Assembly (NCBI GenBank): GCA_964570325.1
Contig: CAZMXS010000002.1
Location: 17,398 to 81,397 of the forward strand
DNA: 64,000 nt
Direction of reading: 5' to 3'
Source of the DNA: an uncultured Verrucomicrobiota bacterium
GTDB taxonomy: Bacteria > Verrucomicrobiota > Kiritimatiellia > CAIQIC01 > CAZMXS01
Positions 9,617-60,146 of the stretch are shown piece by piece. Positions within the stretch are counted from its first letter, which is position 1; every line of letters begins with the position of its first letter. The translations under genes were made by a program, and so were the position numbers. The notes under the pieces were generated by a model. The model worked only from the letters and a program-made list of their open reading frames with translations. It was not told the DNA's origin and made no database searches.

Positions 9617-9630
9617 CGATGAAGACATCC

Positions 9631-10601: not shown

Positions 10602-10618
10602 GGTTGAAACGCTCCGTA

Positions 10619-11326: not shown

Positions 11327-11328
11327 GG

Positions 11329-11751
11329 TTATTCCACCTCGATTCCCATGCTGCGCGCCGTGCCCATAATCATGCGCGCGGCGTGCTCGGGATCCTTCGC
11401 GTTCAAATCCTTTTCCTTCAGCTTGGCAATCTCCGCCACCTGCTGCCGGGTGACCTTGCCCACCTTCTCGCGGTTCGGCGTACCCGACCCCTTCGCGATG
11501 TTCGCCGCCTTTTTCAACAGCGTCGCCGCCGGCGGACTCTTCGTCACAAACGTGAAGGACTTGTCCTGGTACACCGTGATGATCACCGGTATAACCAAAC
11601 CCGCGTCTTTCTGCGTCGCGGCGTTGAACTCCTTGCAGAACGCCATGATGTTGACGCCCTGCTGGCCGAGCGCCGGCCCCACCGGAGGCGCCGGGTTGGC
11701 CTGCCCCGCCGGAATCTGCAGCTTGATAATGCCTGTTACTTTTTTTGCCAT
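11329..11751 (-). CDS. rplK: 50S ribosomal protein L11
   Basis: [44 protein letters not shown]...; 140 aa. Confidence 0.95.
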
Positions 11752-11775
11752 GGAAACACCGCCTGCTGATTGGAA

Positions 11776-12339
11776 TTACGTGGCCCGTTCCACTTGCCAA
11801 TATTCAAGCTCCACCGGCGCCGACCGGCCAAAGATCGAAACCGATACCTTCAGCTTGCCGCGCTCCGGGTCAATCTCCTCGATCACGCCGCTGAAATTCA
11901 GGAAGGGACCATCGTTGATCTTGACCGTCTCGCCGGGCTCGAACTCCACCTTGGGCTTGATCCGATCCTTCTTCTCTTCAATCTGCCGCATAATCGTCTC
12001 GACCTCGGCCGGCCGCAACGGCACCGGCCGGTCCCCCCCCACGAACCCGATGATGCCCGGCGTCTGCTGAGTGAAATACCAAGTTTTATCCACCAGTTGC
12101 CGCTGGTCGTCATAGAGCGTCATGTGCACCAGCACATAGCCCGGGTAGAACTTCCGGGTCGTCGTCGCCCGCCGACCGCCCTTTGTCGGCTTCGCGTTGT
12201 CGTAAATCTTTTCTGTCGGGACCAGCACCTCGTCAATGTAGTCCCCCATCTCCTCCGTTTTGATCCGGCGCTCGATGCTTTCCTTGACCTTCATCTCCTG
12301 GCCGGAAAGCGTATGCAAAACAAACCACTGCTTTTCCAT
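11776..12339 (-). CDS. nusG: transcription termination/antitermination factor NusG
   Basis: MEKQWFVLHTLSGQEMKVKESIE... NGN domain plus C-terminal KOW domain (GETVKINDGPFLNFSGVIEEIDPERGKLKVSVSIFGR); canonical secE-nusG-rplK order. Confidence 0.93.
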   Translation of the reverse strand: MEKQWFVLHTLSGQEMKVKESIERRIKTEEMGDYIDEVLVPTEKIYDNAKPTKGGRRATTTRKFYPGYVLVHMTLYDDQRQLVDKTWYFTQQTPGIIGFVGGDRPVPLRPAEVETIMRQIEEKKDRIKPKVEFEPGETVKINDGPFLNFSGVIEEIDPERGKLKVSVSIFGRSAPVELEYWQVERAT

Positions 12340-12366
12340 GAAACACCGGTTTCTGAAAATATCGCG

Positions 12367-12570
12367 TTAACGGATGACCATCCGCAGCAGACCGTTCAAC
12401 ACCAGATCGCTGGCACCGACGAACACTCCCACGATCAACACGGAGATGATCACCACCACCGTAGATTCCACCAGCTCCGCGCGCGTGGGCCAGGAACACT
12501 TCTTCAGCTCCACGCGCACCTCCTCAATGAAGGTCTTGATGCCGGTCACAAATTGTCTGATCTTGTTCAT
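12367..12570 (-). CDS. secE: preprotein translocase subunit SecE
   Basis: Internal start MNKIRQFVTGIKTFIEEVRVELKKCSWPTRAELVESTVVVIISVLIVGVFVGASDLV; single TM helix; located between tRNA-Trp and nusG. Confidence 0.85.
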   Translation of the reverse strand: MNKIRQFVTGIKTFIEEVRVELKKCSWPTRAELVESTVVVIISVLIVGVFVGASDLVLNGLLRMVIR

Positions 12571-12607
12571 AAGTGATCCGCCCGCCCCCCATGATCGCGC
12601 CACCGCT

Positions 12608-12685
12608 TGGCAGGCCAGGAGGGACTTGAACCCCCAACACCCGGTTTTGGAGACCGGTACTCTGCCAATTGAGCTACTGGCCTAC
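12608..12685 (-). tRNA. tRNA-Trp (anticodon CCA)
   Basis: Minus-strand sequence GTAGGCCAGTAGCTCAATTGGCAGAGTACCGGTCTCCAAAACCGGGTGTTGGGGGTTCAAGTCCCTCCTGGCCTGCCA folds as a cloverleaf with anticodon-loop CTCCAAA. Position between rpmG and secE is canonical. Confidence 0.85.
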
Positions 12686-12701
12686 CCCCGAAACCGCTCC
12701 G

Positions 12702-12854
12702 CTATTTGATCTCTCGGTGCGTTGTATGCTTCCGTTCAGCCGGGCAGAACTTCTTCAGCTCCAGCCGCTCCGTCGAAGTGCGCTTGTTCTTGGTTGTCGC
12801 ATAGTTCCTGCGCTTGCACTCCGTGCACGCCATCTGGATGATCTCTCTGGGCAT
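12702..12854 (-). CDS. rpmG: 50S ribosomal protein L33
   Basis: Below the ORF-track size threshold. Minus-strand ATG at 12854 translates to [50 protein letters not shown] (50 aa, CxxC...C L33 signature). Confidence 0.85.
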
Positions 12855-12894
12855 ATCGCGCCTCTTCCGCTTTGCGCCGCGCCGGACCGCCCGG

Positions 12895-14103
12895 CTACTT
12901 GATGATATCCGTCACGCGCCCGGCGCCGACCGTGCGACCACCCTCGCGAATGGCGAAGCGCATCGTCTTCTCCATGGCAATCGGGGTAATCAGCTTGACT
13001 TCCATGCTGACATTGTCGCCCGGCATGACCATGTCCACGCCCGCCGGCAGCGTAATATCGCCGGTGACGTCGGTCGTACGGAAATAGAACTGCGGGCGAT
13101 ACCCCTTGAAGAACGGGGTGTGCCGGCCGCCTTCATCCTTGCTCAAAATATAAACTTCCGCCTTGAACTCGGTGTGCGGCGTGATGGATCCCGGCTTCGC
13201 CACCACCTGCCCGCGTTCCACATCCTCCTTTTTCAGGCCGCGCAGCAGGCAACCGATATTGTCGCCCGCGCGCCCCTCATCCAAGAGCTTGCGGAACATC
13301 TCGACGCCCGTCACCACTGTCTTCTGCGTATCGCGCAGGCCGACGATCTCCACTTCCTCGCCAACCTTGATGATCCCGCGCTCCACACGGCCGGTTACCA
13401 CCGTGCCGCGGCCTTCGATCGAGAACACGTCCTCGATCGGCATCAAGAACGCCTGATCAATGATCCGAACCGGCTCCGGCACGAACGAATCGACCGCGTC
13501 CAGCAGTTCGGCGATGCACTTGGCGTCCGGATGATCCGGCGACGGCGCATTGATCGCCTTCAGCGCGGAACCCCGGATGATCGGCGTCTTGTCGCCCGGG
13601 AATTCATACTTCGTCAACAGCTCGCGAATCTCGAGTTCGACAAGGTCCAGCAGCTCCGGATCATCCACCGTGTCCACTTTGTTCAGGAAGACGACGATCG
13701 CCGGCACGCCCACTTGGCGGGCCAGCAGGATGTGTTCGCGCGTCTGGGGCATCGGACCGTCAGAGGCGCTGACGACAAGGATCGCGCCGTCCATCTGCGC
13801 CGCGCCGGTGATCATGTTCTTAATGTAGTCGGCGTGCCCCGGACAATCCACGTGCGCGTAATGGCGCTTCGGCGACTGGTACTCCACATGCGATGTCGCA
13901 ATTGTCAGAATCTTGGTTGGATCGCGCCGGCCCTGGGACTCGGAGGCCTTGGCCACCTGGTCATACGACACGTACGTGGCCATATTCCGGGCCGACTGGA
14001 CCTTCGTGATCGCCGCGGTCAGCGTCGTTTTGCCATGGTCCACGTGGCCAATGGTGCCGACATTGACGTGCGGTTTGGTGCGTTCGAATTTTTCCTTAGC
14101 CAT
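12895..14103 (-). CDS. tuf: elongation factor Tu
   Basis: [33 protein letters not shown]...[26 protein letters not shown]...; 402 aa. Confidence 0.97.
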
Positions 14104-14197
14104 GAGTTGCCTCCTCGCCTGTGCTTCGTTTTTTACCCTTCCGTTGTCGTTGCCGCATCTTCACGCCATCCGCGCAATCCCCGCCGCGGCCTGCAGC

Positions 14198-14273
14198 TGG
14201 AGCCCACGAGCGGGATTGAACCGCTGACCTCGTCCTTACCAAGGACGTGCTCTACCAACTGAGCTACGTGGGC
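14198..14273 (-). tRNA. tRNA-Thr (anticodon GGT)
   Basis: Minus-strand GCCCACGTAGCTCAGTTGGTAGAGCACGTCCTTGGTAAGGACGAGGTCAGCGGTTCAATCCCGCTCGTGGGCTCCA; anticodon-loop CTTGGTAAG; immediately upstream of tuf. Confidence 0.85.
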
Positions 14274-14327
14274 TTCAATCCACCCCGCGGCTTCCGCCGG
14301 CCACGCCGGCTACCCGCGCGCAAAACA

Positions 14328-14348
14328 AAAAGACACAAGACAAAACAC
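14328..14348. repeat. degenerate heptanucleotide tandem tract (AAAAGAC / ACAAGAC / AAAACAC)
   Basis: Three consecutive 7-nt units with 5/7-6/7 identity, inside an AT-rich 450-bp intergenic island upstream of tRNA-Thr. Confidence 0.4.
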
Positions 14349-14733
14349 TCCCCGCTCCGCAGTACTCACTCAATTCCATGAGACAGCGAGAAGTGTTCTT
14401 GCTCTACCAGTCTCGATATAAGAAGGCTCGTCGCCGAAACCTTCGATTCCGCGTGAATGTATAAGAAAGAATCCGCGTGTCAACCAACAAATGAAAAAAT
14501 TTTTAAGTGGCATATTATTGGCACGGTTCTTAACAATCCGCCCGCCCAATACAGCGCGCCGGGACAGCGCACCAACCGGCAGGATATGGAGAACGGCCAA
14601 TCGCGAAAGCGGGAAAGGCAAAAAGAACGAAGAACTTAAGCATTTGACCATGAATATGTTAGATCACAAAAAGGCGTTCGCCAAATTTAACAGATGGAAC
14701 CGTTCCCGATATTTGTATCAGGTTGAGTAGTTC

Positions 14734-17700
14734 ATGAATGCTTTTCGGATCATGCTCGCTGCGGCGTTGGCAAGCGGCGCGCTGGCGCTTGAGCCCAGCG
14801 CACAGGCAGCCAATTTGCTGCGAAATAACGGGTTCGAAGCCCCGACCAGCACGGACTGGACGCAGGAGAACACGAACTGGTTTACTTGGGGTGGAGCTTT
14901 TCGCACAGATTGGCAGAAATATGCCGGCAACTATGCCCTCGGCATCCCCGGCTCCTGGAGCGGCTCCACCAGCGGCGGCTTCGAGCAAAAGGCGCCGGTG
15001 ACCAATGGGCATCGCTATGCCGTCAGTTTCTTTTATTTCTGGGACAATGAGTTTCAGGCCAGTCAGCGCTCTTTTTCGGCGCATTGGTACGACGCCACCG
15101 CCGCCTGGCTCGCTTCACATGAGTATGACCTCAATCTTGTCGGCGCTCAATCCAACTGGTGCTTCTCCGGCTGGTATCCGCTGCGCGCGCCCGACGGCGC
15201 GGCGCGCCTGGAAATCAAGCTGGATATTGCCGGCGTGGGCGGCGGTGGAGTGCTCTATCTGGATGAATTTGCGCTTGAGGATTGCGGCACGGCGCTCGAT
15301 TCTTTTTTGGCCAACGGCACCTGGGAGACCCCGCCGGATCAGACCGGATACGGCAACTGGCGCCTCGCGGGCAATGCGATCCATTCGGATTGGCAGAAAC
15401 ACGCCGGCCAATATGCGGTCGGCTTCTGCGGCCGCTGGTGGGGCGCCCAGACGCAATGCCTCGCCCGCCAATGCATCGCCGTAACCGGCAGCCACGTCTA
15501 TGCGACGGATTTCTGGCACTTTTGGGACAACGATTTCACCTGCGCAGTCCGGCAGTTCAGCGTTGAATGGAAAAACAGCGCCGGCGTCGGCCTGGGAACC
15601 AATCTGACGATCGTCCTCACCAATGGCGCTCAAGCCCAATGGCATCTGGCCGGCCCGTTCACCGTCACCGCCCCCGTCGCTGCCGCCGCCGCCGTTATCC
15701 AATACCGCTGCGCCGGCATGGGGACCAGTGGCGTGTATTATCTGGATGACATCACCTGGCGCGATCAATCCGCCGCCGGCCCCGCCTTCTTTCGGCGGCA
15801 AGGCACCAATATCGTGGATGGCCAGGGCCAGCCGTTCCTCATCCGCGGCGAGGCGCTCAGCGGCTGGCTTTCACCCGAACCCTACATGCTGCAGATTTCC
15901 GGCGACGCCAGCGGGCGGGTCTACAGCACGCACACGCGCCTGCGTAACCAGATCAACTGGATTCTCAAGAACCGCGCGGAAATTGACCTGTTCTGGAACA
16001 CCTACAACTCCAATTTTGTGACGGAAAGCGATATCCAATTCCTGGCCGATGAGGGCTGCAACACGCTGCGCATCCCGCTTAATTTCCGGGATCTCAGCCC
16101 GCAGAATAACGAGGGGGCCTTCCTGCCCGACACGTTCGCGTTGCTCGATCGCGTGATCGGCTGGTGCCGCGCGCGCGGGCTGCGCGTCATCCTCGATCTC
16201 CATGTCTGCCCCGGCGGCCAGGCCCCTGAAACCTCCGGCGACCCCGAATACCTGCAAACAATCAGCAACCAGGAGCATGGCGTGGAATGCCTTTGGGTCA
16301 CCAACGCGGCCTACACCACGCTGACTGGCCGCACGCCGGAATCCAATCGCCGCCGCACCGCCGATATCTGGCGCGAGCTCGCGCGTCATTTCCGCACCAA
16401 TGAATATGTCATGGGTTATGAACTGATCAACGAACCGCACCTGCCCGCCATCACCTGGTCAAACCTCCTGCGCGCCACGTTTGTCCAGATCAGCTCGGCC
16501 ATCCGTGAGGTGGACACGAACCACTTGCTCTTCGTCGAGGGCGATATGTTTGCCGAGCGCATTGACGGGCTGCTCCCAATGTGGGACGGCAACACCGGCA
16601 TTGCCGTTCACCGCTACTGGCGCGAGACCGGCTACCAGGACGGCTGGGTACAGACCTATCTCGACGCGCGCGCCGCGCACCAGGTTCCGTTCTGGCTGAG
16701 CGAGGCGGGCGAGAATTCCAGCCCGTGGTATCATGACGTGGCCCGGCTCTTCGAAAGCAACCGCATCGGCTGGACGTGGTGGGGCTGGAAAAAAGTGGAC
16801 AGCATTTCGTGCGCGCTTTCCGTTTCAAAATCCACCAACTACCAGTACGTCATTGACCATTTGTGGAGTTCCAACGTCAATCCGGTCCTGTTCCGCGCCG
16901 GGCTCATGGCCCTGGCCGACGCGGTCAAGTTCACCAATTGCACGTTGCGCAAGGAATGGCCGCTGGCTTTGTTCGACACCAACGGCCGCTATAACACGGC
17001 CACAACGCCCTACACCAACCACACGCTCCCTTGCGCGATCCAACTGGCCGACTACGACATCGGCACCATCCACCAAGCCTATTACGACACCGACTACTGG
17101 GCGACCAACTATCCCCCCGCCGCATGGAACCGGGGCTGGGGCTACCGCAACAACGGCGTGGATGTTGTGCCGTTGAACAGCGGCGGCTACTACGTCGGCT
17201 ACAACGTCGCCGGCGAGTGGGTGCGCTACACGATTCAGGTGGTTCACGGCAGCCGCTACGATATCCGGCTGAACGTGTCTTCGCCGGACAGCGCCGGCAA
17301 GGTGGCGGTGTACCTTGACGAAACCAACGCGCTCACCGGCGTCATCAACATCCCGCACACGGGCGGGTGGGAAAACTGGAGTCCCGTCACGATCAGCAAC
17401 TGCGTCATCCCAGCCGCCGGCGTCCACACCCTGAAGGTCAGCGTGGTCAGCGAGTCGCTCAACATGCGCGACATGCAGATCAGCTTCCCCAATGTGAACT
17501 TCCTGGACTATGACAACGACGGCATGGACGACCGCTGGGAAGTTCGGCAGGGCGGGCACCTGCCGCCAACCGGCGACCCGGACGGCGACCGAATGAGCAA
17601 CGTGAACGAGTATCTCGCGGATACCGACCCATTCAGCGCCACGTCATACTTCGCGGAGGCCATCAGCCGCACCCGCACCAACACCGTGCTGAGCGTGCCC

Positions 17701-17865
17701 ATCACCTCGACGGCGCGGTACTACGCCATCCACAGCGCCACGAACCTGGTGCGCGGCCCGTGGCGGGCGCTGGGCGCCAACCTTAAGGGTACCGGCGGCG
17801 CGCTGACCTGGTCGGACACCAGCAGCCCGCGCAACGTGTACTACCGCTGGCTCGCCGCGCCGTAG
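14734..17865 (+). CDS. secreted multidomain glycoside hydrolase: two N-terminal beta-sandwich (CBM-like) repeats, GH5 catalytic domain, CBM6/35-like module, C-terminal Ca-binding repeat + terminal domain
   Basis: Signal peptide MNAFRIMLAAALASGALALEPSAQA. Repeated ...DWQK[YH]AG[NQ]YA[LV]G... modules. GH5 signatures RIPLNF, acid/base GYELINEPHL, nucleophile region WLSEAGE. CBM6-like VYLDETNALTGVINIPHTGGWENW. C-terminal DYDNDGMDDRWE...DPDGDRMSNVNEYLADTDP...YYRWLAAP. Confidence 0.65.
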   Translation: MNAFRIMLAAALASGALALEPSAQAANLLRNNGFEAPTSTDWTQENTNWFTWGGAFRTDWQKYAGNYALGIPGSWSGSTSGGFEQKAPVTNGHRYAVSFFYFWDNEFQASQRSFSAHWYDATAAWLASHEYDLNLVGAQSNWCFSGWYPLRAPDGAARLEIKLDIAGVGGGGVLYLDEFALEDCGTALDSFLANGTWETPPDQTGYGNWRLAGNAIHSDWQKHAGQYAVGFCGRWWGAQTQCLARQCIAVTGSHVYATDFWHFWDNDFTCAVRQFSVEWKNSAGVGLGTNLTIVLTNGAQAQWHLAGPFTVTAPVAAAAAVIQYRCAGMGTSGVYYLDDITWRDQSAAGPAFFRRQGTNIVDGQGQPFLIRGEALSGWLSPEPYMLQISGDASGRVYSTHTRLRNQINWILKNRAEIDLFWNTYNSNFVTESDIQFLADEGCNTLRIPLNFRDLSPQNNEGAFLPDTFALLDRVIGWCRARGLRVILDLHVCPGGQAPETSGDPEYLQTISNQEHGVECLWVTNAAYTTLTGRTPESNRRRTADIWRELARHFRTNEYVMGYELINEPHLPAITWSNLLRATFVQISSAIREVDTNHLLFVEGDMFAERIDGLLPMWDGNTGIAVHRYWRETGYQDGWVQTYLDARAAHQVPFWLSEAGENSSPWYHDVARLFESNRIGWTWWGWKKVDSISCALSVSKSTNYQYVIDHLWSSNVNPVLFRAGLMALADAVKFTNCTLRKEWPLALFDTNGRYNTATTPYTNHTLPCAIQLADYDIGTIHQAYYDTDYWATNYPPAAWNRGWGYRNNGVDVVPLNSGGYYVGYNVAGEWVRYTIQVVHGSRYDIRLNVSSPDSAGKVAVYLDETNALTGVINIPHTGGWENWSPVTISNCVIPAAGVHTLKVSVVSESLNMRDMQISFPNVNFLDYDNDGMDDRWEVRQGGHLPPTGDPDGDRMSNVNEYLADTDPFSATSYFAEAISRTRTNTVLSVPITSTARYYAIHSATNLVRGPWRALGANLKGTGGALTWSDTSSPRNVYYRWLAAP

Positions 17866-33804: not shown

Positions 33805-34170
33805 TCACGGTCCCGCCTCCTTCTTCTCGCCCCAGGACAAAATGGCCATTGCTTCTTCGCGGCTGTGCACGATGGGGATGAGCGCATCCATATTCGCCGC
33901 CTTCAGGCCCAATTCGGCCATCTTCTGCGGGTTCAGGAGGATCAGTTTCAGATTGTCCCGATGAAGGGCTTTCGCGGCGCTCAAGAGCATCCGCATACCC
34001 ATGGACGAAAGAAAACTCACTCCCGCCAGGTCCACCAGCACGTGGGTGCGCGCGCCCAACACATGACTTTGGAATTGCATCTCGCTATCCCGCACCGCCT
34101 GCGTGTCCAGTTTGCCCGCAATGGCAATCTGCACCCAGCGTTCATTCTTTTCCACCGGATTGATTTCCAT
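33805..34170 (-). CDS. STAS-domain anti-sigma-factor antagonist (SpoIIAA/RsbV-like)
   Basis: MEINPVEKNERWVQIAIAGKLDTQAVRDSEMQFQSH...VDLAGVSFLSSMGMRMLLS; 121 aa from the internal start. Confidence 0.65.
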   Translation of the reverse strand: MEINPVEKNERWVQIAIAGKLDTQAVRDSEMQFQSHVLGARTHVLVDLAGVSFLSSMGMRMLLSAAKALHRDNLKLILLNPQKMAELGLKAANMDALIPIVHSREEAMAILSWGEKKEAGP

Positions 34171-34241
34171 GAGCTGTATCTCCTCGCCTTGGCGCAATAG
34201 CCGCACTGATCAGTATCTTCCAGTTTTCTCCCGGCTGACCA

Positions 34242-34256
34242 CTGATTACTGATTAC
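34242..34256. repeat. direct heptamer pair CTGATTA-CTGATTA-C
   Basis: Tandem 7-mer about 70-85 nt upstream of the STAS gene start; same unit as at 33766 and 55089. Confidence 0.4.
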
Positions 34257-34704
34257 CCTTATCATCCAGCGCCGTCATTACCCGTTCGATTTCTCTGAAC
34301 AACGCCTGACTGCTGACCGGTTTGGTGACGTATCCATCCATGCCGGCTTGCCGGCATTTCTCAGCATCACCCTTCATGGCGTAAGCGGTCAGCGCAATAA
34401 TGGGAATATGCCCGCCGCTTTCACGCTCAGCCGCGCGGACGCGCCGGGTGGCATCCCAACCACTCAACTCCGGCATCCGCACATCCATCAATACCAGGTC
34501 GAACCGGCCCCCCAAGATGGCTTTGACACCGCTGGGGCCATCCTCCGCTACGGTTATTTGATATCCACGCTCCTGCAAATAAATCCGCACCAGTTGCTGG
34601 CTGATAGGATCGTCGTCCACCAAAAGCACCTTCAACGAACGCGGCCCGAACGGTTCAGACCGCCCATGCGGAACATCCGGTTTTTGATCCGACTGATTCA
34701 TCAT
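34246..34704 (-). CDS. single-domain response regulator (CheY-like receiver)
   Basis: LKVLLVDDDPISQQLVRIYLQERGYQITVAEDGPSGV...DLVLMDVRMPELSGWDATRRVR...PIIALTAYAMKGD...GMDGYVTKP; start at MMNQSD. Confidence 0.75.
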   Translation of the reverse strand: MMNQSDQKPDVPHGRSEPFGPRSLKVLLVDDDPISQQLVRIYLQERGYQITVAEDGPSGVKAILGGRFDLVLMDVRMPELSGWDATRRVRAAERESGGHIPIIALTAYAMKGDAEKCRQAGMDGYVTKPVSSQALFREIERVMTALDDKGNQ

Positions 34705-34860
34705 GCCGGATCTCATTATGACAGCGGCCGGCTGGCGGCACAAGCCCAGGTTAAGGCATGACATGCCGGGAGGCCCAGCGGGCGCCGGGCGGCAATAAGG
34801 GACAGGATGGCGGCACAAGCGGGCAAGATGCCCGCGCTCCGTGGAATGCCTTGGTTTTCT

Positions 34861-37377
34861 TTATGGCAGGCGGGCCCGCAGGCGATAGAAGCCGGTTTCG
34901 GAGTCGGCCGCATTGGTCAAGGTCAACCAGGCGCCGTTGCCGGGATGGTTGGAGGCCACGACCAGCCAGACCGCCGCGGTCAGCGTCGGCTTGTATTGCA
35001 AATCATATAGACGGTGGCCGGCCGAGGCGAAGGACAGGCAATCCGCCATGTTGCTGGTGGCCGGCGTCAGGCTCAACCAAAGGCAGGATTGCCCGTTGGT
35101 CGGATCAGTCGCCGCGCGGTATTCGCCCAGATTGCACAAGCCATCGCCATCAAGGTCAACGCCGGAGTCATTGGCATAGACATTCAATCCGTAGCGTTGC
35201 TCCCACAAATCGGGCATGCCATCGGCGTCGGCATCCGGACCCGACACCACGAGGGTCAACTCGTTCGTGCCCTCGCCAACGGGCAAGGCTACCTGCGCCA
35301 CAAGCGCGGTGACCACGGATGAAGTGATCGCCAGGGTGTAAACCCCGTGGAATCCGCGGAAGGTCAACGTGCCGGCGGCGTCAGCCGCGCGGTTGGTGCG
35401 CGTGGTCCACGCGCGCATGAGGCTCTCGTACTGGCGACCGGCGGCGTTGGTGGTCCAGTCACCATTAACCAGGGCGGCATTCGCGCCGCGCCAGTGATTG
35501 CTGGCCCAGAACCCCCACATCAGGATCCCCCCGACGGCGGGGTGGCTGAACGCCGTTTTGTAAAATGTCTTCAACAAGCGCGCGCGCTCATTCTCGTCCG
35601 GCGCGGAGATGTCAAACTCCGTGCACCAGACCGGCAGGCCCACTTCACCGAGGGTGTTCAGCCGCGCCAGCACGAGGTATGGATTAAGCTCCCACATGTG
35701 ACACTGCGCGCCGATGCCGCCCACTGGCGCGCCGGCGGCGCGCAAGCCCTGGATATGGGCGACATATTGGTCCGTATCCGAGAAGGACACCACGCCGTAG
35801 TCATTGACGAAAAGCCGCGCGTCCGGGTCCAGTTCAGCCGCGCGCTGAAACATCCACGGGCGGATGATTCCACCCAGATAATTGGAATAAAAGGCGCCAT
35901 GCAGCATCTCATTGTTCACATCCCAGTGCTCAAAGCGCCCGCGATAACGCGGCACGACGCTGTCCAACCGATTGGACACCGCCGCGCGCAACTCCGCCGG
36001 CGCGTTGGTAAGCTCGCGCACCCATTCCTGAACATGACTCTCCACTTCCCAGAAAATGCAGTGGCCGCGCATGCGAATGTTGTTGGAAACACAGTAGTTC
36101 GCCATGGCATCCGCATTGTCATAGTCCAACATGCCTGTTTCGGGTTCATTCTGGCTCCACTTGGTCTCATTCTCAAACACCGCCCATTCAAAGTGTCGGG
36201 CGAAGAAATCAGCATAACGCGGCGTGGACCGCACCCATTGGCTAAGCGCGGAGCCGAAGGCGAAGTCATGCCGTGTCTGCGTGATCGCGACGGCGGCATT
36301 GGTGAGCGGACGGCCAAGGGCGTCGAGCAGCCGGATACGCATATCGCGCTTGCGCAGGAGTTCGATGCGCGCGTCGGCCTCGGCTTCCCATTCCCCGCTG
36401 CCGATCAGCACTGCGTCGTCCGCATAGAAATTGACCCCGGGCGGCGGCCCTTCGATGTACATGTTCAGTTCGGAAAGCGTGCCGGTATACTGCAACGTGT
36501 AAGCGCCAACCAGTTCAGTCCAGCCGCTGTTACCGGCCCAGACATTGGTGGTCAGGTGCGTATATTCCGCCTGGCCATTGGCCACTTTTTTGATGGTGAG
36601 CGTTACGGGCGCAGCCGAGGTGTTGGCGATCCGGACCCAGACGCGGTTGGTGTAACTCATGCCGTTGGCCATGATGTTGCGCATGTCGTGGACCGGGCCC
36701 TGCCAATAAGCGGTGCGGCCGGTGACGTAACCGGCGTGCGCGCCGCCGTGAACCTGCGCAGTGGATGTGGTCAACACACAGGGGCTGTAGGCATACCAGG
36801 CGGTTGTGCCGTCTTCAAAGCCCCCGTTGTTGAGCAGGTTGTCCGCCGGCATCGGCGGCGTGCCATGGGAAAGAATCCACATTCGGTCCACATACAACGT
36901 ATCTTTCGAACGTTTACTATTTCTCCGATCCGTATCCAGCACGCGGACGAAGATTGTGCCGGCGGGCGCGCCGACCAGGGTGACGCTCTGGGTGGTTTTG
37001 GCATCGGTGGCAATCGTCAGTAAATCGTTGTATGTCGTGCCGTCGGCCGACCACGCGAAAATAAAGTTATCACCATCGCTGTTATTCGGGCGGCAGGCGA
37101 CGACGTTGAAAATAACGGTCGTGCCCCCGGAAACATCGAAACGCCATTTATGCTCCAAATAACTGTAGCGCGAATTGGTGATTTCCGTCAGCGCCTCGCA
37201 CCCATCATCGTTGGCATACGTGTCGGCATACGTGCCGGCCACCGTACCGGCGAAAAACAAATCCTCCTGAGCATAGTTGGTCGCCACCTGCGCGGACGCC
37301 ACTTGGCCCCACAGCATCCCCGCCAGCAGGATTCCCAACCCTTTGTCGGTAGCGCTCCCGATTTTTGACCAATTCAT
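34861..37377 (-). CDS. secreted GH10 endo-1,4-beta-xylanase with N-terminal CBM-like modules and C-terminal Ca-binding repeat + terminal domain
   Basis: Signal peptide; CBM22-like NLLNNGGFEDG; GH10 motifs GHCIFWE, WDVNNEMLHG (acid/base), CTEFDI (nucleophile); C-terminal DADADGMPDLWEQ...DLDGDGLCNLGEYRAATDP...FYRLRARLP. Confidence 0.7.
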   Translation of the reverse strand: MNWSKIGSATDKGLGILLAGMLWGQVASAQVATNYAQEDLFFAGTVAGTYADTYANDDGCEALTEITNSRYSYLEHKWRFDVSGGTTVIFNVVACRPNNSDGDNFIFAWSADGTTYNDLLTIATDAKTTQSVTLVGAPAGTIFVRVLDTDRRNSKRSKDTLYVDRMWILSHGTPPMPADNLLNNGGFEDGTTAWYAYSPCVLTTSTAQVHGGAHAGYVTGRTAYWQGPVHDMRNIMANGMSYTNRVWVRIANTSAAPVTLTIKKVANGQAEYTHLTTNVWAGNSGWTELVGAYTLQYTGTLSELNMYIEGPPPGVNFYADDAVLIGSGEWEAEADARIELLRKRDMRIRLLDALGRPLTNAAVAITQTRHDFAFGSALSQWVRSTPRYADFFARHFEWAVFENETKWSQNEPETGMLDYDNADAMANYCVSNNIRMRGHCIFWEVESHVQEWVRELTNAPAELRAAVSNRLDSVVPRYRGRFEHWDVNNEMLHGAFYSNYLGGIIRPWMFQRAAELDPDARLFVNDYGVVSFSDTDQYVAHIQGLRAAGAPVGGIGAQCHMWELNPYLVLARLNTLGEVGLPVWCTEFDISAPDENERARLLKTFYKTAFSHPAVGGILMWGFWASNHWRGANAALVNGDWTTNAAGRQYESLMRAWTTRTNRAADAAGTLTFRGFHGVYTLAITSSVVTALVAQVALPVGEGTNELTLVVSGPDADADGMPDLWEQRYGLNVYANDSGVDLDGDGLCNLGEYRAATDPTNGQSCLWLSLTPATSNMADCLSFASAGHRLYDLQYKPTLTAAVWLVVASNHPGNGAWLTLTNAADSETGFYRLRARLP

Positions 37378-40972: not shown

Positions 40973-41365
40973 ATGCCTGAAAAAGACATGCTGAAGCGGC
41001 TTTGGGAAAAGCAGACCGAATTGAACCTGCGCATCGGCGTGGATTGCGCGCAGATGAGCGAGGAAGACCAGCAGAAATGGATTCTCAACTACTGCCGGGC
41101 CATGTCGCAGGAGATCGCCGAACTCACCGACAGCGTCCCTTGGAAATGGTGGGCGCGCTACCAGAAGTTCGACCGGCAGAATGCCCGGGTTGAAGTGGTG
41201 GATTTATTTCATTTCCTGATCTCGTTGGCACAGGTGCTCGGTATGAGCGCCGAGGATGTGTTTGACACCTATCTGCAAAAACACAAAGTCAACCTCCAAC
41301 GACAGGATACGGGCTATCAGGTAAAGGACGAGTCCGATAACCGGCAGATTGGCGCCGGCAATTAG
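40973..41365 (+). CDS. all-alpha NTP pyrophosphohydrolase (dimeric dUTPase / MazG-like)
   Basis: Internal start MPEKDMLKRLWEKQTELN...; EEDQQKWILNYCRAMSQEIAELTDSVPWKWW...VEVVDLFHFLISL, resembling dimeric-dUTPase-family helices. Confidence 0.45.
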   Translation: MPEKDMLKRLWEKQTELNLRIGVDCAQMSEEDQQKWILNYCRAMSQEIAELTDSVPWKWWARYQKFDRQNARVEVVDLFHFLISLAQVLGMSAEDVFDTYLQKHKVNLQRQDTGYQVKDESDNRQIGAGN

Positions 41366-41390
41366 GACGCGACGGCAAGCGGAAAGGGCT

Positions 41391-44030
41391 ATGAGACTGG
41401 CGGATAAAGTCACCGGGTTGCTGGTCATCGTGCTGGCGATTTCGATCGCCCTGAACTTTGCCGTTTTCCGCATTGTTATCTTCCGCGGCTTCATTCAGAT
41501 GGAGGATGAGCGCGCCGTCCAGGACATGGACCGCTGCCGCGAGGCGCTCAAGCGCGAGATTGATGGCGTCCGCATGCTGGCCATTGACTGGGCGCAGTGG
41601 GACGACAGCTATCGTTTCGTCGCGGACGGCAACCCCGAGTATACCGAGGCCAACCTGCTGCTTAAGTCGTTCAAAGATAACAGTCTTTCATTGATCGCCT
41701 ATTACACGATCTCCAACACGCTGGTCTGGGGCCAATGCTACGACCTCGACACCGGAGAAGAAATCCACCTGCGGGAGTTTGCCGGCACCACGCTGCCTGA
41801 TCATAGCGCGCTGGTCTCTTATCCGCAAACCCAGCCGGCGGTCGCGGGCATCCTGATGACCGACCGCGGACCAATGCTCGTCGCTTCGGCGACCATCCTG
41901 ACCTCGGAGGGCCTGGGGCCGCCGCGCGGCCACCTGATCATGGGCCGTTTCCTTGATGCCGCTCTCGTCAAGGCGTTGGGTGAACGGGTCAATCTGGCGT
42001 TGGATATCTTCCCGATCCCGGGGGGCAAAGTGCCGGATTCCGTGCGCGGGATTGTGGCCCAATTGCCGGCCGCGGGCGCGGCGCACATCGAGAAGAAGGA
42101 CGCGCGTCGCCTGCTTGTGTACGCGATTATCACCGACATTAACAACGCGCCCGCGATCCTGCTGCGCACCACGGTAGTGCGGGAAATCAACGCGCGCGCG
42201 CGCGCCACCCAGCACTATGTCTCCATTGCACTGCTGGTCGCCGGCCTGCTGATCCTCGTGGTTATCATCCGCCTGATGCGGGTGCTGGTAGTCGGCCCCA
42301 TCAGTTGGCTGACCCAGACGGTGCTGGCCGTGCGCGAAAGCGCGCGAACCGGGCTGGGTATTCACCGCAAGATCGCCCTGCGCCGCAATGACGAAATTGG
42401 CGTGCTGTCGCGCGAGTTCGAGAATACCATCCAGGAATGGGATGCCGCGCGCACCCGGGCGGAACAGGCCAGCCAGGCCAAGTCCGACTTCCTGACCTTT
42501 ATTTCACACGAACTGCGTACGCCCCTCAACGGCATCATGGGTTTGGCTGAACTCATCGCCAATGCCAAGTCGCTCGAAAGCAACCGCGAACGCGCGCGCA
42601 CGATCATTGACGAATCCGAATCGCTGGTCAATCTGATCAACGAGTTGCTCGACACGGCGCGGATCGAGGCCGGCAAGCTGGAATTGGAAAGCGTGCCGTT
42701 CGATCCCGCCGCCTTGGTCGAGAAGATCGTGTCGGTAATGTCGGTGCGGGCCCTGAAAAAGGGGTTGGGGTTCGACGTGCGGCTCGACCCCAAGCTGCCG
42801 GCCGAACTGATCGGCGACCCCGGCCGTATCCGCCAAGTCATCGTCAATCTCGCCGGCAACTCGCTCAAGTTCACCGAACAGGGCTCGGTTTCATTGGGAA
42901 TCAGCGTGTTGGAGGATCTCGGCCAGCGCGTCAAACTCCGCTTTGAGGTGGTGGACACCGGTATCGGCATTCCCCGGGAGAAACAAGAGGCGATTTTTGA
43001 GCGGTTCGTCCAGGCCGACCGCAACATTGCCGTACGCTACGGCGGCACCGGCCTGGGCATGAGCATCTCGCGCGACTTGGTCCGGCTGATGGGCGGGGAA
43101 ATCGGGGTGGACAGCGAAGTTGGGCGCGGCAGCACGTTCTGGTTCCAGCTTGTCCTGCGCAAGGGAACCGGCACGCGGCACGGCGAGGAGCCTGGCGCCG
43201 CCAATCAGCCGGCGCCCTATGAGACCGGCCGGACCGGCCACATCCTGCTGGTGGACGATTATGCGACCAATCGCGAAGTCGCCATGAGCCACCTCTTCGC
43301 CGCCGGCTACACAATTGAAACGGCCGAAAACGGTCTGGAAGCCATTGCCGCGGCGGAACGACACCGTTTCGACCTGATCCTGATGGATGTCGAAATGCCC
43401 GAGATGAACGGTTGCGAAGCAACCCGTCGGATTCGGGCCGGCAATTCACCTAATCGGCAAACCCCCATCCTGGCCATGACCGCTTATGTTTCCGGAGTGA
43501 CGCGTGAGGAGTGCCTAGCTGCCGGAATGAACGGCGTAATCACCAAGCCGATTCGCCGCAAGGCCCTGCTGGCCGAAGTGGACCGCCGGATTCGCCGCGC
43601 ACGCGGCGAGGCATCGGCCGGAGAAACCCAGACGGGCGCCCGGCCGGCGGCAACCGGCGCCGCGCAACAGGCCGAACCCATCCAGTGGGACCAGGCCGTC
43701 GCGGAATTTCTCGGCGATGAAAAGGAAGTAGAACGTCTGCTGCGCTCGTTCCTCGACGCCGGGGCTGAACAACTGGTACGTATGAAGGAAGCCATGAACA
43801 AAGGCCATTTCGCGCAACTGGCGCGCGAGGCGCATTCGATCAAGGGCGCCGCCACGAATTTGACAGCGGCGCCGTTGGCGGACGCCGCCGCCGCCCTTGA
43901 AAAGGTGGCCCGCGCGGGCAGCGGCTCGGAATGCCCGGCCGCGTTCGACAAAATGGTCGTGGAATTCGACCGGCTGCGCCGTCATGTTCAGACGCGGGTG
44001 CCGCCGGGCGAGAAGGACTGGCTGCAATGA
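41391..44030 (+). CDS. hybrid sensor histidine kinase (periplasmic sensor domain, HAMP, HisKA, HATPase_c, REC, HPt)
   Basis: Two TM helices flanking a ~250-aa extracytoplasmic domain; H-box SHELRTPLNGIMG; N/G boxes; receiver ILLVDDYATNREV...DLILMDVEMPEMNG; C-terminal HPt (AHSIKGAATNL). Confidence 0.85.
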   Translation: MRLADKVTGLLVIVLAISIALNFAVFRIVIFRGFIQMEDERAVQDMDRCREALKREIDGVRMLAIDWAQWDDSYRFVADGNPEYTEANLLLKSFKDNSLSLIAYYTISNTLVWGQCYDLDTGEEIHLREFAGTTLPDHSALVSYPQTQPAVAGILMTDRGPMLVASATILTSEGLGPPRGHLIMGRFLDAALVKALGERVNLALDIFPIPGGKVPDSVRGIVAQLPAAGAAHIEKKDARRLLVYAIITDINNAPAILLRTTVVREINARARATQHYVSIALLVAGLLILVVIIRLMRVLVVGPISWLTQTVLAVRESARTGLGIHRKIALRRNDEIGVLSREFENTIQEWDAARTRAEQASQAKSDFLTFISHELRTPLNGIMGLAELIANAKSLESNRERARTIIDESESLVNLINELLDTARIEAGKLELESVPFDPAALVEKIVSVMSVRALKKGLGFDVRLDPKLPAELIGDPGRIRQVIVNLAGNSLKFTEQGSVSLGISVLEDLGQRVKLRFEVVDTGIGIPREKQEAIFERFVQADRNIAVRYGGTGLGMSISRDLVRLMGGEIGVDSEVGRGSTFWFQLVLRKGTGTRHGEEPGAANQPAPYETGRTGHILLVDDYATNREVAMSHLFAAGYTIETAENGLEAIAAAERHRFDLILMDVEMPEMNGCEATRRIRAGNSPNRQTPILAMTAYVSGVTREECLAAGMNGVITKPIRRKALLAEVDRRIRRARGEASAGETQTGARPAATGAAQQAEPIQWDQAVAEFLGDEKEVERLLRSFLDAGAEQLVRMKEAMNKGHFAQLAREAHSIKGAATNLTAAPLADAAAALEKVARAGSGSECPAAFDKMVVEFDRLRRHVQTRVPPGEKDWLQ

Positions 44031-58087: not shown

Positions 58088-58927
58088 TTATGGCTCGACC
58101 AGACGCACCCGGTAACTGCCGTTCTCGTTGGCGAAACCGTTGGTGACGACCGTTTCAGTGATTGGGCCGACGGCGGTGATCACGGCGCTGACGTTATTGT
58201 AGACCGGATTCTCCTTCAGGTCGTCAACCGTGTACTCCACCTGGTACTGCTTGCCGGCAACGGAATCCCAGCCAATGACCGCGTCATTGTTCTCGTCGGC
58301 GCGGACCCAGGCCATGATAAAGACGGAATTGATATCGAGCAAATCGGTGCCGGCGCGCGGCTCATCGCCGTCGCGCATGCCGTCACCGTCGGAATCCCAC
58401 TTGGTCGGGTCAGAACCGTAGCTCTTCTCCCAGGAATTGTTAAGGCCGTCGTTATCCGGATCGCGCGGGTCAATTGGATTGGTGGTCGCGGATATCGCCG
58501 CCACCATGTCATAAATACCGGCCGGTACCGGCATCGCCTGCGAGTCCCCGTAGAAAGAAGCGGCGGCCAGGGTTGGCGCATTGAAAACCCGCACAAAAAT
58601 GGTGCCAGACGGCTTGGGATCCATGAACACAGCCGCAAAACGGGCCGGCTCAATCAAGCCCGGCGCCATCATGCCGCCGATGGTGGTTTGACTGACCAGC
58701 GGGTTGTTGGGATCGGCGTTACCATCATAATCCGGAGGGAAAATGCCGCTGTTCGCATAGCGGATCTCGACCAAATCACAGTTGGTCGCCGGGCTCAAGA
58801 TATTGCCGACCAGTTTAGCGCCGAACTCGTCCACAATCTCGTTGGTCACACCAATGTTGAGCGGAATTTCCTGGGCAAGAACCGGCAAGCTCCATAACGC
58901 CCCCAACGCCAACAGTCCAGCGAGCAT
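58088..58927 (-). CDS. secreted protein with thrombospondin-type-3-like Ca-binding repeats and conserved terminal domain
   Basis: Signal peptide MLAGLLALGALWSLPVLAQE (internal start); DPRDPDNDGLNNSWEKSYGSDPTKWDSDGDGMRDGDEP...; terminal ...GSYRVRLVEP resembling the C-termini of the GH5 and GH10 proteins. Confidence 0.5.
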   Translation of the reverse strand: MLAGLLALGALWSLPVLAQEIPLNIGVTNEIVDEFGAKLVGNILSPATNCDLVEIRYANSGIFPPDYDGNADPNNPLVSQTTIGGMMAPGLIEPARFAAVFMDPKPSGTIFVRVFNAPTLAAASFYGDSQAMPVPAGIYDMVAAISATTNPIDPRDPDNDGLNNSWEKSYGSDPTKWDSDGDGMRDGDEPRAGTDLLDINSVFIMAWVRADENNDAVIGWDSVAGKQYQVEYTVDDLKENPVYNNVSAVITAVGPITETVVTNGFANENGSYRVRLVEP

Positions 58928-59189
58928 GGGTCCAAGGATCGGGTTAAGCGTTTTACCCCGACATAGGAAAAACGCGGCATAAAAACCGCTCGCCGCCACC
59001 CCCGCCGGTAAGCGGGTCACAGCTTGTCCTGCCGCCCCACCCGGCTGCGTCGCCCTGTGACTGTACGTCTTCATCGCTCGTTCACCATGTTCCCCAACAT
59101 AACCGACATCCTGCGCCCCTGCAACCATCGCTTCCCAACAGATTCGACATTCCGGCCTGATTTTTGCTCATCTTTTCCCAGCCGGATCA

Positions 59190-59807
59190 TCATTCCTGCC
59201 TGCGACGAACCGCCGTCGCCGGACGCGGTTCCACCCGTTTCAAACTGAAATAAACCCCGCCGGCCAACGCCAGAAACAGCAACATATAGCTGCCCGTGCG
59301 TGGTTCCGGGATCACAATGAAATTATTTGTGGCATTAACCTGAATCGGCGCATCCGGCGCAAAATCAACCGCAATCTGCTGGAATGCATCCCAGTTGGTG
59401 GCGGGCATCATAATCGAAGTGCCCCATGCGACCAAACCCAGCACCGGATCATTAACCGTCTCGAAGAAACGGATATACAGCCACTTGACAGCCTCCGAGT
59501 CAAAAGTGAAGCCGCCGACGTCGAAACCGCCCCAGCCATCCGCCAGACGAATGGTTCCGATGTAGACATCGTTGCCCTGGGTTGAATTGGCGATTAAATT
59601 GGTCCCGATTTGAATGGGTCCGTTGTTGATATTGTCATAACTGCCGAAAATATAAACTACCGACCCATCTCCCAATGGCGCGCCAGCCGAACCCAGCAAT
59701 TCCCAGCTTGTATAAGCCTCCAGGGTAATCGTAAGCGCTTGCGCCCCCGGCACGATGCCGGCTAGGGCGATCATGGCGACCGCCAGCGCCCGCTTCAGAT
59801 TGTGCAT
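59190..59807 (-). CDS. PEP-CTERM sorting-domain protein (exosortase substrate)
   Basis: N-terminal signal peptide; C-terminal VIPEPRTGSYMLLFLALAGGVYFSLKRVEPR (PEP motif, TM helix, basic cluster). Confidence 0.65.
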   Translation of the reverse strand: MHNLKRALAVAMIALAGIVPGAQALTITLEAYTSWELLGSAGAPLGDGSVVYIFGSYDNINNGPIQIGTNLIANSTQGNDVYIGTIRLADGWGGFDVGGFTFDSEAVKWLYIRFFETVNDPVLGLVAWGTSIMMPATNWDAFQQIAVDFAPDAPIQVNATNNFIVIPEPRTGSYMLLFLALAGGVYFSLKRVEPRPATAVRRRQE

Positions 59808-60146
59808 CGGCACACGCATACCCCGCCTACCCCGATTTAACACCCATAACGCCTGTTTTGTCCGCTTGCCATAACTGACCGAGCTGGATCAAAACAGACT
59901 GATCCCACTTCGAGCATATTATCCGCACTCTCTACGGTTATAGATACCTGTTCAGGCTGATAATGTCAAACGATTGAACCGTGTTTTTATTGTTCGGAAT
60001 CAGTATGCCAGCGCCCCTGTTCATGTCAGGAATGAGAATGGAATTACCGGTATCATACGGGTACCGGGAAAATTTGCGGGCCAGCCGAACCAGAATCCCA
60101 TATATGACGGCCCACTGATAATTTTCCGTTACCGAGCCAAAAGATT

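What the first reader, a model, noticed from the sequence alone, without database searches (positions are those of the whole stretch)
34861..35235. Recurrent C-terminal module (Ca-binding Asp-rich repeats + ~75-aa terminal domain ending YRxRxxP-COOH) shared by three secreted proteins
The GH10 xylanase (C-terminus encoded at 34861-35235), the GH5 enzyme (17506-17865) and the stand-alone secreted protein at 58088-58471 all end with the same architecture. It runs DxDxDG(M/L)xDxWE..., then DxDGDGxxNxxEYxAxTDP (thrombospondin-type-3-like Ca-binding loops), then a ~70-aa beta-rich segment terminating in FYRLRARLP / YYRWLAAP / YRVRLVEP. Only the domain positions and key residues are conserved. That pattern argues for a functional targeting or anchoring tag, analogous to T9SS CTDs or PEP-CTERM, rather than a recent duplication. 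The third carrier sits next to a bona fide PEP-CTERM protein, so this tag appears distinct from exosortase sorting. No named sorting signal could be matched from memory.
Basis: partly seen in the sequence, partly recalled or inferred. Interest (0 to 1): 0.6.

Follow-up and report, generated by a model that had tools for sequence, protein, structure and literature searches.

The report
Unnamed C-terminal tail domain on secreted proteins
Three exported proteins in this Kiritimatiellia/Verrucomicrobiota contig end in the same two-part module, two calcium-binding Asp-rich repeats plus a small Ig-like beta-sandwich ending ...FYRxRxxP, and this sandwich is a widespread domain with no curated family name that almost always sits at the very end of its carrier, which makes it a candidate surface-anchoring or sorting tag.

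Summary
The GH10 xylanase, the GH5/CBM6 enzyme and a 346-aa protein each end with two TSP3-like DxDxDG repeats followed by a ~78-aa domain ending (F/Y)YRx4-5P-COOH. A profile built only from database copies finds exactly these three tails in the six-frame window (E 3e-17, 1e-11, 7e-10; next best E>1). There is no DNA-level similarity, so this is not a recent duplication.

Pfam-A and NCBIfam have no model for the terminal domain. That includes the T9SS CTD, PEP-CTERM, FN3 and dockerin models. An exhaustive profile search finds 4,469 cluster representatives. After removing discoidin cross-hits, 137 of 140 top members end in the domain. It occurs as one copy, usually preceded by TSP3 repeats, or as 2-8 tandem copies. 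Carriers include glycosidases, peptidases, LamG proteins and giant adhesin-like proteins. All named carriers are Verrucomicrobiota or Kiritimatiellia. In one Kiritimatiellae locus, 4 of 9 genes carry it.

AlphaFold2 gives a confident six-strand Ig/FN3-like sandwich (pLDDT 90) with no close solved relative.

The "functional tag" reading is partly supported. The best guess is a non-covalent, Ca-dependent surface-retention module. A true sorting signal is not excluded, and nothing here is experimentally shown.

The parts
34861..37377 (-). GH10 endo-xylanase gene (838 aa): Sec-type signal peptide, unassigned N-terminal domain, CBM4_9, GH10, then the C-terminal module
   Evidence: ORF. Pfam CBM_4_9 (residues 180-312) and Glyco_hydro_10 (369-638). 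Full-length orthologues P0001-P0004 keep the module. The signal peptide (MNWSK...VASA|QV) is by inspection.
35101..35235 (-). Xylanase residues 715-759: two TSP3-like Ca-binding repeats (DADADGMPDLWEQRYG ... DLDGDGLCNLGEYRAATDP)
   Evidence: Motif by inspection. NCBIfam sub-threshold hits to the TSP3 regions of MtsD and Amuc_1099_fam. AF2 pLDDT is 95-97 here, with a short helix after each loop (H14-19 and H40-45 of the 129-aa model).
34864..35100 (-). Xylanase residues 760-838: terminal beta-sandwich domain ending FYRLRARLP-COOH (stop codon at 34861-34863)
   Evidence: Independent HMM E 2.7e-17. AF2 of the domain alone: pLDDT 90.4, pTM 0.77, six strands. No Pfam or NCBIfam hit.
14734..17865 (+). 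GH5 (cellulase family) + CBM6/35 enzyme gene (1043 aa) with signal peptide and the same C-terminal module
   Evidence: ORF. Pfam Cellulase (424-686) and CBM_6 (806-916). The identical protein is on JGI metagenome contig Ga0255811_11614575.
17506..17631 (+). GH5 residues 925-966: two TSP3-like repeats (DYDNDGMDDRWE ... DPDGDRMSNVNEYLADTDP)
   Evidence: Motif by inspection. Weak Amuc_1099_fam hit at residues 945-972. Aligned with the other modules in A1 and A3.
17632..17862 (+). GH5 residues 967-1043: terminal beta-sandwich domain ending YYRWLAAP-COOH
   Evidence: Independent HMM E 6.6e-10. HMM built from A2: E 1.8e-25.
58088..59128 (-). Stand-alone exported protein (346 aa from the first ATG; the JGI gene call is 310 aa, starting at 59020): unassigned N-terminal domain plus the module
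   Evidence: ORF. JGI gene call in L051. Orthologue in L001 at 48% identity.
58340..58471 (-). Residues 220-263: two TSP3 repeats (DPDNDGLNNSWE ... DSDGDGMRDGDE)
   Evidence: Pfam TSP3_bac PF18884: 37.2 bits (cut-off 25), 2 stretches.
58091..58339 (-). Residues 264-346: terminal beta-sandwich domain ending SYRVRLVEP-COOH
   Evidence: Independent HMM E 1.1e-11.
59190..59843 (-). PEP-CTERM-like protein immediately upstream on the same strand (context; forms a conserved gene pair with the 346-aa protein)
   Evidence: Its tail ...IPEPRTGSYMLLFLALAGGVYFSLKR... is PEP-CTERM-like by inspection. TIGR02595 scores only 8.8 bits. The orthologue is adjacent to the protein-C orthologue in L001 (41% identity).

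Best explanation
Each of the three proteins is exported by an N-terminal Sec signal peptide. Each ends in one structural unit: two Ca2+-binding thrombospondin-type-3-like loops (each followed by a short helix) packed against a ~70-residue, six-strand Ig/FN3-like beta-sandwich. The last strand of the sandwich carries the (F/Y)YR motif, and the chain stops right after a terminal Pro. The sandwich belongs to a large domain family with no model in Pfam-A or NCBIfam; every carrier that has an organism name is from Verrucomicrobiota or Kiritimatiellia. The most likely role is a non-catalytic, non-covalent retention or attachment module. It would keep secreted enzymes, proteases and giant adhesin-like proteins on the cell surface or in the cell's own matrix (LPS or exopolysaccharide). 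Tandem copies would add avidity, and the TSP3 loops would provide Ca2+-dependent rigidity or Ca2+-bridged binding. Shown here: homology of the three tails, the fold class, the lack of a curated family, the terminal position, the carrier diversity and the lineage. Inferred: export, Ca2+ binding, and the retention function itself.
For: Homology and family size: the independent HMM hits only the three tails in the window, and the exhaustive search finds 4,469 representatives at E<=1e-3 and 86 at E<=1e-10. Terminal position: 132 of 150 top hits end within 6 aa of the C-terminus, and 91 of those end in Pro. After removing 10 discoidin cross-hits and counting divergent last copies, 137 of 140 end in the domain. 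Architecture: 65 of the 150 top hits have one copy and 85 have 2-8 tandem copies, before any filtering; single copies are preceded by a TSP3 motif in 54% of cases. This is the pattern of terminal, repeatable wall- or surface-binding modules. Carrier diversity argues against a substrate-specific role: GH10, GH5, trypsin-like and subtilase/sedolisin-type peptidases, LamG, FG-GAP, beta-helix, MBG/YDG and Ig I-set proteins. Density: 3 carriers in this 64-kb window and 4 of 9 genes in Kiritimatiellae locus L055, all with the full WExxYFG...DxDxDG...EYxAGTDP + sandwich module. Position swapping: GH10+CBM4_9 homologues in other phyla carry a dockerin, CBM2/3 or CarboxypepD_reg domain at the same C-terminal position. 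Structure: the 129-aa module models as one compact unit (pLDDT 90.7, pTM 0.80), and the sandwich alone gives pLDDT 90.4. PDB matches are only generic Ig/FN3 folds (best E 0.02-0.09, TM ~0.5). All named carriers are Verrucomicrobiota or Kiritimatiellia.
Against: There is no direct evidence of localisation, Ca2+ binding or any ligand. No partner or receptor was identified. The conserved residues (W, Y, W, FYR) may simply be the core of an Ig-like fold. The terminal Pro is also present after internal copies in tandem arrays, so it is a domain-boundary feature and not proof that a free C-terminus is recognised. The top-150 list is ranked by summed score, so it over-represents multi-copy proteins. 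Only a handful of carriers have organism names. My crude signal-peptide heuristic on database carriers was inconclusive (17 of 44, with many truncated gene calls). The tools could not census a whole genome.
Confidence: 0.42

Rival explanations
1. The tail is a true secretion or sorting signal. The terminal beta-sandwich would be recognised by a dedicated, still undescribed outer-membrane translocation or attachment machinery of Verrucomicrobiota/Kiritimatiellia and possibly cleaved, functionally like the T9SS C-terminal domain.
For: It has the same size, fold class and strict C-terminal position as T9SS CTDs. It is found on many unrelated exported proteins at high local density. None of the top hits carries a hydrophobic C-terminal helix after the domain, so it never co-occurs with a PEP-CTERM-type tail on the same protein there. 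It appears lineage-restricted.
Against: There is no sequence match to TIGR04183 or PF18962. No T9SS CTD appears among the top 50 PDB fold matches. More than half of the top hits have 2-8 tandem copies, which is unusual for a translocation signal. No candidate machinery was seen in the window or the fetched loci.
Confidence: 0.2
2. The tail is an ordinary Ig/FN3-like structural spacer or stabilising X-module with no targeting role, and the TSP3 repeats are just a Ca-stiffened linker.
For: It has a generic Ig/FN3 fold. It forms tandem arrays in giant adhesin-like proteins alongside MBG, YDG and Ig domains. The conserved residues look like core residues.
Against: Spacers are mostly internal, whereas here ~98% of members end with the domain. 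A spacer with nothing after it has nothing to space. The domain is maintained on small enzymes that already have CBMs.
Confidence: 0.18
3. The tail is a carbohydrate-binding module derived from the F5/8 type C (discoidin/CBM32) fold that targets polysaccharide substrates.
For: The profile cross-hits F5/8 type C arrays. hhalign of the tail profile against those discoidin domains gives 92% probability and E 6.7e-7 over 58 columns. CBM32 structures appear among weak Foldseek hits. Two of the carriers in the window are glycoside hydrolases.
Against: The similarity covers only the central strands, and the tail lacks the N- and C-terminal parts of the discoidin fold. The discoidin set was selected because it cross-hit, so the E-value is biased. 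Carriers include peptidases and many non-CAZymes. Both enzymes in the window already carry CBM4_9 or CBM6.
Confidence: 0.12
4. The module is a dockerin-like Ca-dependent protein-protein docking unit. The TSP3 pair would be the analogue of the dockerin F-hands and the sandwich the analogue of an X-module, assembling enzymes onto a scaffold.
For: There are two Ca-loop-plus-helix units in tandem. Dockerins occupy the same position in GH10 homologues. The Ca-loops and sandwich model as one packed unit (pTM 0.80).
Against: There is no PF00404 match. The helices are much shorter than dockerin helices. No cohesin-like partner was identified. The tandem-array class mostly lacks TSP3 repeats.
Confidence: 0.06

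Closest known systems
T9SS C-terminal domain (type A, TIGR04183 / PF18962 Por_Secre_tail)
   Same: It is a ~70-80-aa Ig-like beta-sandwich placed at the extreme C-terminus of many unrelated Sec-exported enzymes and adhesins within one bacterial lineage.
   Different: There is no sequence match. The lineage differs: Verrucomicrobiota/Kiritimatiellia rather than the FCB group. This domain is often in tandem arrays and is usually fused to TSP3 Ca-binding repeats. No PorU/PorV-like machinery is known or was seen.
Bacterial TSP3 repeat (PF18884), as in MtsD, CglD and Amuc_1099-family proteins
   Same: The Asp-rich DxDxDGxxDxxE loops upstream of the tail are of this type.
   Different: TSP3 repeats explain only the first ~45 aa of the module. 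The terminal sandwich is a separate domain that those family models do not cover.
Fibronectin type III / Ig-like domains (PF00041 and relatives)
   Same: The fold class matches: best PDB matches are Ig V, EMMPRIN D1, Tencon FN3 and cytokine-receptor FN3 domains, with TM ~0.5.
   Different: No HMM match: 0 of 66 copies hit fn3, and 2 of 66 hit Tissue_fac weakly. The domain is shorter (six strands, ~65-75 aa) and is almost always terminal.
F5/8 type C (discoidin / CBM32) domain (PF00754, PF22633)
   Same: There is local profile similarity over the central strands: W..a..Y.iqvS.d..W..v...G.GG.....RYVRl against W.S..G..Y.vqyk..L...W..l...GtG.....RFYRv.
   Different: The tail is about half the size, lacks both flanking parts of the discoidin fold, and does not reach Pfam thresholds.
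Terminal non-covalent anchoring repeats of secreted proteins (SLH, choline-binding and cell-wall-binding repeats) and dockerins
   Same: They are terminal, occur in 1 to several copies, are appended to diverse secreted enzymes, and are interchangeable with CBMs or dockerins in homologous enzymes.
   Different: There is no sequence or fold relationship. The carriers here are from diderm bacteria, and the binding target is unknown.

Membership tests
T9SS CTD (TIGR04183 / PF18962) | Match to the family HMM | tested here: not met
   No hit at E<=1 in Pfam or NCBIfam for the three proteins, for 9 multi-copy carriers, or for 66 isolated copies against Pfam.
T9SS CTD (TIGR04183 / PF18962) | Ig-like beta-sandwich of ~70-100 aa at the extreme C-terminus of Sec-exported proteins | tested here: met
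   AF2 gives a six-strand sandwich. 137 of 140 family members end in the domain.
T9SS CTD (TIGR04183 / PF18962) | Host genome encodes the T9SS core (PorK/L/M/N, SprA, PorU/V) | not testable with these tools
   Only a 64-kb window plus ~20-kb loci are available. None of these genes was seen in them. Named carriers are Verrucomicrobiota or Kiritimatiellia.
PEP-CTERM (TIGR02595) | PEP motif, hydrophobic transmembrane helix and basic tail at the C-terminus | tested here: not met
   The three tails end ...FYRLRARLP...YYRWLAAP and ...YRVRLVEP, with no hydrophobic helix and no HMM hit.
LPXTG / sortase signal | LPXTG motif followed by a hydrophobic helix and basic tail | tested here: not met
   Absent from the sequences.
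Bacterial TSP3 repeat (PF18884) | Asp-rich DxDxDGxxDxxE Ca-binding repeat matching the HMM | tested here: met
   Protein C scores 37.2 bits against a cut-off of 25, with 2 stretches. The two enzymes have the motif and sub-threshold hits to the TSP3 regions of MtsD and Amuc_1099 but do not reach the Pfam threshold.
Fibronectin type III (PF00041) | HMM match and seven-strand FN3 topology | tested here: inconclusive
   There is no HMM match. Fold-level resemblance is only generic (Foldseek E 0.09-0.4, TM ~0.5). DSSP shows six strands.
F5/8 type C / CBM32 (PF00754) | Full ~125-150-aa discoidin beta-barrel matching the HMM | tested here: not met
   No Pfam hit on the three tails. hhalign similarity is limited to 58 central columns.
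Dockerin type I (PF00404) | Duplicated F-hand Ca-binding loop plus long helix matching the HMM | tested here: not met
   No hit. Homologous GH10 enzymes of other phyla do carry PF00404 at this position.

The most novel reading that the evidence does not exclude
The TSP3 + FYR-tail module is the address label of an undescribed protein surface-display or secretion pathway specific to Verrucomicrobiota/Kiritimatiellia. A dedicated outer-membrane machinery would recognise the terminal beta-sandwich, as T9SS recognises its CTD, and would place dozens to hundreds of enzymes and adhesins per genome on the cell surface.
Probability: 0.2. Interest if true: 0.8.

Novelty: new variant of a known kind. 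Interest (0 to 1): 0.55.

Why it matters
Verrucomicrobiota and Kiritimatiellia are major polysaccharide degraders in soil, sediments, guts and digesters, yet how they export and display their many glycosidases and proteases is poorly understood. A single HMM for this tail could flag a large part of the surface or secreted proteome in these genomes. It would give a handle for finding the partner (receptor or machinery) by phylogenetic profiling. It would also fill a gap in Pfam and NCBIfam: thousands of proteins now labelled "hypothetical" or annotated only for their N-terminal domains share this terminal domain. If the tail proves to be a real sorting or anchoring signal, it would add a new entry to the short list of bacterial C-terminal protein-sorting systems.

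Tried and rejected
- Word-indexed homology search with the 129-aa module found nothing. The same tool with a 66-copy alignment returned only short unnamed fragments with no precomputed Pfam on the domain.
- PDB sequence search with the tail profile gave no hit below E 0.26.
- I tested whether the PEP-CTERM-like neighbour and the 346-aa protein are paralogues with alternative anchors, a "choice-of-anchor" pattern. BLASTP E was >0.2 in both the window and L001, so this was rejected.
- The PEP-CTERM HMM on the neighbour scored below cut-off.
- Literature searches (Kiritimatiellota/TSP3, PEP-CTERM/GH/secretion, conserved C-terminal domain/Verrucomicrobia, PF18884, RFYRV/RFYRL strings) found no description of this domain.
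- A crude hydropathy test for signal peptides on database carriers was inconclusive because many gene calls are truncated.
- Recent duplication or gene conversion was rejected: 19-23% identity and no blastn similarity.
- Scanning the ~49 TSP3-selected genome loci found only four further carriers (L001, L023, L046, L048), so TSP3 repeats alone do not predict the tail.
Full report
**1. The observation**

- 34861-35235(-) is the end of an 838-aa protein with CBM4_9 and GH10 domains.
- 17506-17865(+) is the end of a 1043-aa GH5 + CBM6/35 protein.
- 58088-58471(-) is the end of a 346-aa protein without other recognised domains.

Each tail has two Asp-rich DxDxDG(M/L)xDxWE and DxDGDGxxNxxEYxAxTDP repeats followed by ~78 residues ending FYRLRARLP, YYRWLAAP or SYRVRLVEP. 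A regex scan of all six frames finds this combination only in these three ORFs. All three proteins start with a Sec-type signal peptide (by inspection).

**2. Is it more than chance?**

Pairwise BLASTP of the terminal ~78 aa alone is marginal (E 3e-4 and 2e-3), and identity is 19-23%. Profile evidence settles the question.
- Full-length orthologues of the xylanase from Kiritimatiellae and "Verrucomicrobia ADurb.Bin345" MAGs keep the same module (P0001-P0004).
- A 7-sequence profile of the terminal domain, searched exhaustively against 1.84 billion representatives, returned 4,469 proteins at E<=1e-3 and 86 at E<=1e-10.
- An HMM rebuilt from 208 database copies, excluding the window's own proteins, finds the three window tails at E 2.7e-17, 1.1e-11 and 6.6e-10. 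The next best window ORF has E>1.
- blastn shows no nucleotide-level similarity.

The three tails are therefore homologous and anciently diverged, not a recent duplication.

**3. What the terminal domain is**

No Pfam-A or NCBIfam model covers it. This holds for the three window proteins, for nine strongly matching multi-copy proteins and for 66 isolated copies scanned one by one against Pfam. The negatives include T9SS Por_Secre_tail, PEP-CTERM, fn3 and dockerin. One protein (P0121) gave a partial hit to DUF7298.

There is no PDB sequence relative.

AlphaFold2 with a 23-sequence alignment models the whole 129-aa module as one compact unit (pLDDT 90.7, pTM 0.80). It has two loop-plus-short-helix elements followed by six beta-strands. 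The domain alone, modelled with 66 sequences, gives pLDDT 90.4 and pTM 0.77.

Foldseek against the PDB returns only generic Ig V, EMMPRIN, FN3 and cytokine-receptor sandwiches (best E 0.02-0.09, TM ~0.5). No T9SS CTD is among the top 50.

The family consensus is ...(L/I)xWxSxxGxxYx(V/L)(Q/E)YxxxLxxxxWxx(L/V)...GTG......(T/D).......RFYR(V/L)x(V/L)xxP.

**4. Architecture across the family**

Among the 150 best hits, the last copy ends within 6 residues of the C-terminus in 132, and 91 of those end in Pro. I inspected the 18 exceptions.
- Ten are F5/8 type C (discoidin) arrays that cross-hit the profile.
- Five actually end in a more divergent copy.

That leaves 137 of 140 true members ending with the domain.

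Copy number across all 150 top hits, before this filtering, is 1 in 65 proteins and 2-8 in 85. This list is ranked by summed score, so it favours multi-copy proteins. Single copies are terminal in 64 of 65 cases and are preceded by a TSP3 motif within 70 aa in 54%. Tandem arrays rarely have TSP3.

Carriers include the following.
- GH10 xylanases.
- Trypsin-like and subtilase/sedolisin-type peptidases.
- A proprotein-convertase P-domain protein.
- LamG, FG-GAP/VCBS and beta-helix proteins.
- MBG/YDG and Ig I-set adhesin-like giants.

Every carrier that has a source organism name is Verrucomicrobiota, Verrucomicrobiia or Kiritimatiellae/Kiritimatiellia.

Local density is high: 3 carriers in this 64-kb window. 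In Kiritimatiellae locus L055, 4 of 9 genes end in the full WExxYFG...DxDxDG...EYxAGTDP + sandwich module. They are a 487-aa peptidase, a 502-aa protein, a 2,172-aa protein and a 5,872-aa protein.

The terminal Pro also follows internal copies in arrays, so it marks the domain boundary rather than a free-end recognition motif.

**5. Context in the window**

The window is chromosomal, carrying rpoB/rpoC, ClpB, AlaRS and ribosomal protein genes. It is identical to JGI metagenome contig Ga0255811_11614575.

The 346-aa protein lies 61 bp downstream of a PEP-CTERM-like protein on the same strand. This pair is conserved in L001 at 41% and 48% identity. The two proteins are not detectably paralogous. 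The neighbour does not reach the TIGR02595 cut-off.

GH10+CBM4_9 homologues from Clostridia, Planctomycetota-like and other lineages carry dockerins, CBM2/3 or CarboxypepD_reg domains at the equivalent C-terminal position. The module therefore sits where other lineages place anchoring or targeting modules.

**6. Interpretation**

Established here:
- A real, large beta-sandwich domain family that Pfam-A and NCBIfam do not cover.
- Named carriers come only from Verrucomicrobiota sensu lato.
- It is almost obligatorily C-terminal.
- It is appended, usually through TSP3 Ca-binding repeats, to diverse exported proteins.

The function is inferred. Four features fit a non-covalent surface- or matrix-retention module better than a passive spacer or a substrate-specific CBM: the terminal position, repeatability in tandem, carrier diversity, and interchange with dockerins and CBMs.

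A genuine sorting or translocation signal analogous to the T9SS CTD remains possible (about 0.2). The frequent tandem arrays argue against it, and no machinery was seen.

There is a local profile similarity to the central strands of F5/8 type C domains (hhalign 92%, E 6.7e-7, 58 columns). This hints at a distant relationship to galactose-binding-like folds. It is partial, and it is biased because the discoidin set was chosen from sequences that had already cross-hit the profile.

**7. Verdict**

Novelty: a new variant of a known kind, namely a C-terminal Ig-like module on secreted proteins. Interest is moderate. The result gives a concrete, testable handle on surface display in a poorly understood and ecologically important lineage, but there is no mechanistic evidence yet.

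Noticed in passing
window 58088-59843 (-); L001 9397-10930: The PEP-CTERM-like 217-aa protein and the 346-aa TSP3+tail protein form a conserved, same-strand gene pair (61-bp gap here, 4-bp gap in L001). The two proteins are not detectably homologous to each other. They may be two subunits of one surface structure with different C-terminal fates.
   Followed up: partly
database proteins P0145, P0147, P0199, P0205, P0227, P0257 and others; alignments A4 vs A5: The tail profile cross-hits F5/8 type C (discoidin/CBM32) arrays. hhalign gives 92% probability over 58 central columns. This suggests a possible distant evolutionary link between the tail and part of the galactose-binding-like fold.
   Followed up: partly
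window ~36853-37290 (-), xylanase residues ~30-175: A conserved N-terminal domain of the xylanase (…SRYSYLEHKWRFDVSGG…DGDNFIFAWSADGTTY…LYVDRMWI…) has no Pfam hit. It is kept in all four full-length orthologues P0001-P0004.
   Followed up: no
window 14734-15800 (+), GH5 residues ~25-345: The GH5 enzyme has two ~160-aa internal repeats upstream of the catalytic domain (NLLRNNGFE…YLDEFALED and FLANGTWE…YYLDDITWRD) with no Pfam assignment. They are probably CBM-like jelly rolls.
   Followed up: no
L055 (Kiritimatiellae MAG GCA_016929905.1) 5898-17775: Four of nine neighbouring genes (487, 502, 2,172 and 5,872 aa) end in the same TSP3 + tail module. An omptin-family outer-membrane protease gene lies at 134-1099 of the same locus.
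   Followed up: partly
P0006 (GH10 homologue, JGI): A close GH10+CBM4_9 homologue ends in a pair of DVNCDGKINNFDIDPF dockerin-like repeats instead of the TSP3 + tail module. This shows C-terminal module swapping between lineages.
   Followed up: no
window 33805-34818 (-): A STAS-domain protein and a stand-alone response-regulator receiver protein lie immediately downstream of the xylanase on the same strand. A CHASE4 hybrid histidine kinase lies at 41349-44030. Together they could form a regulatory context for the glycosidases.
   Followed up: no
   Followed up: yes
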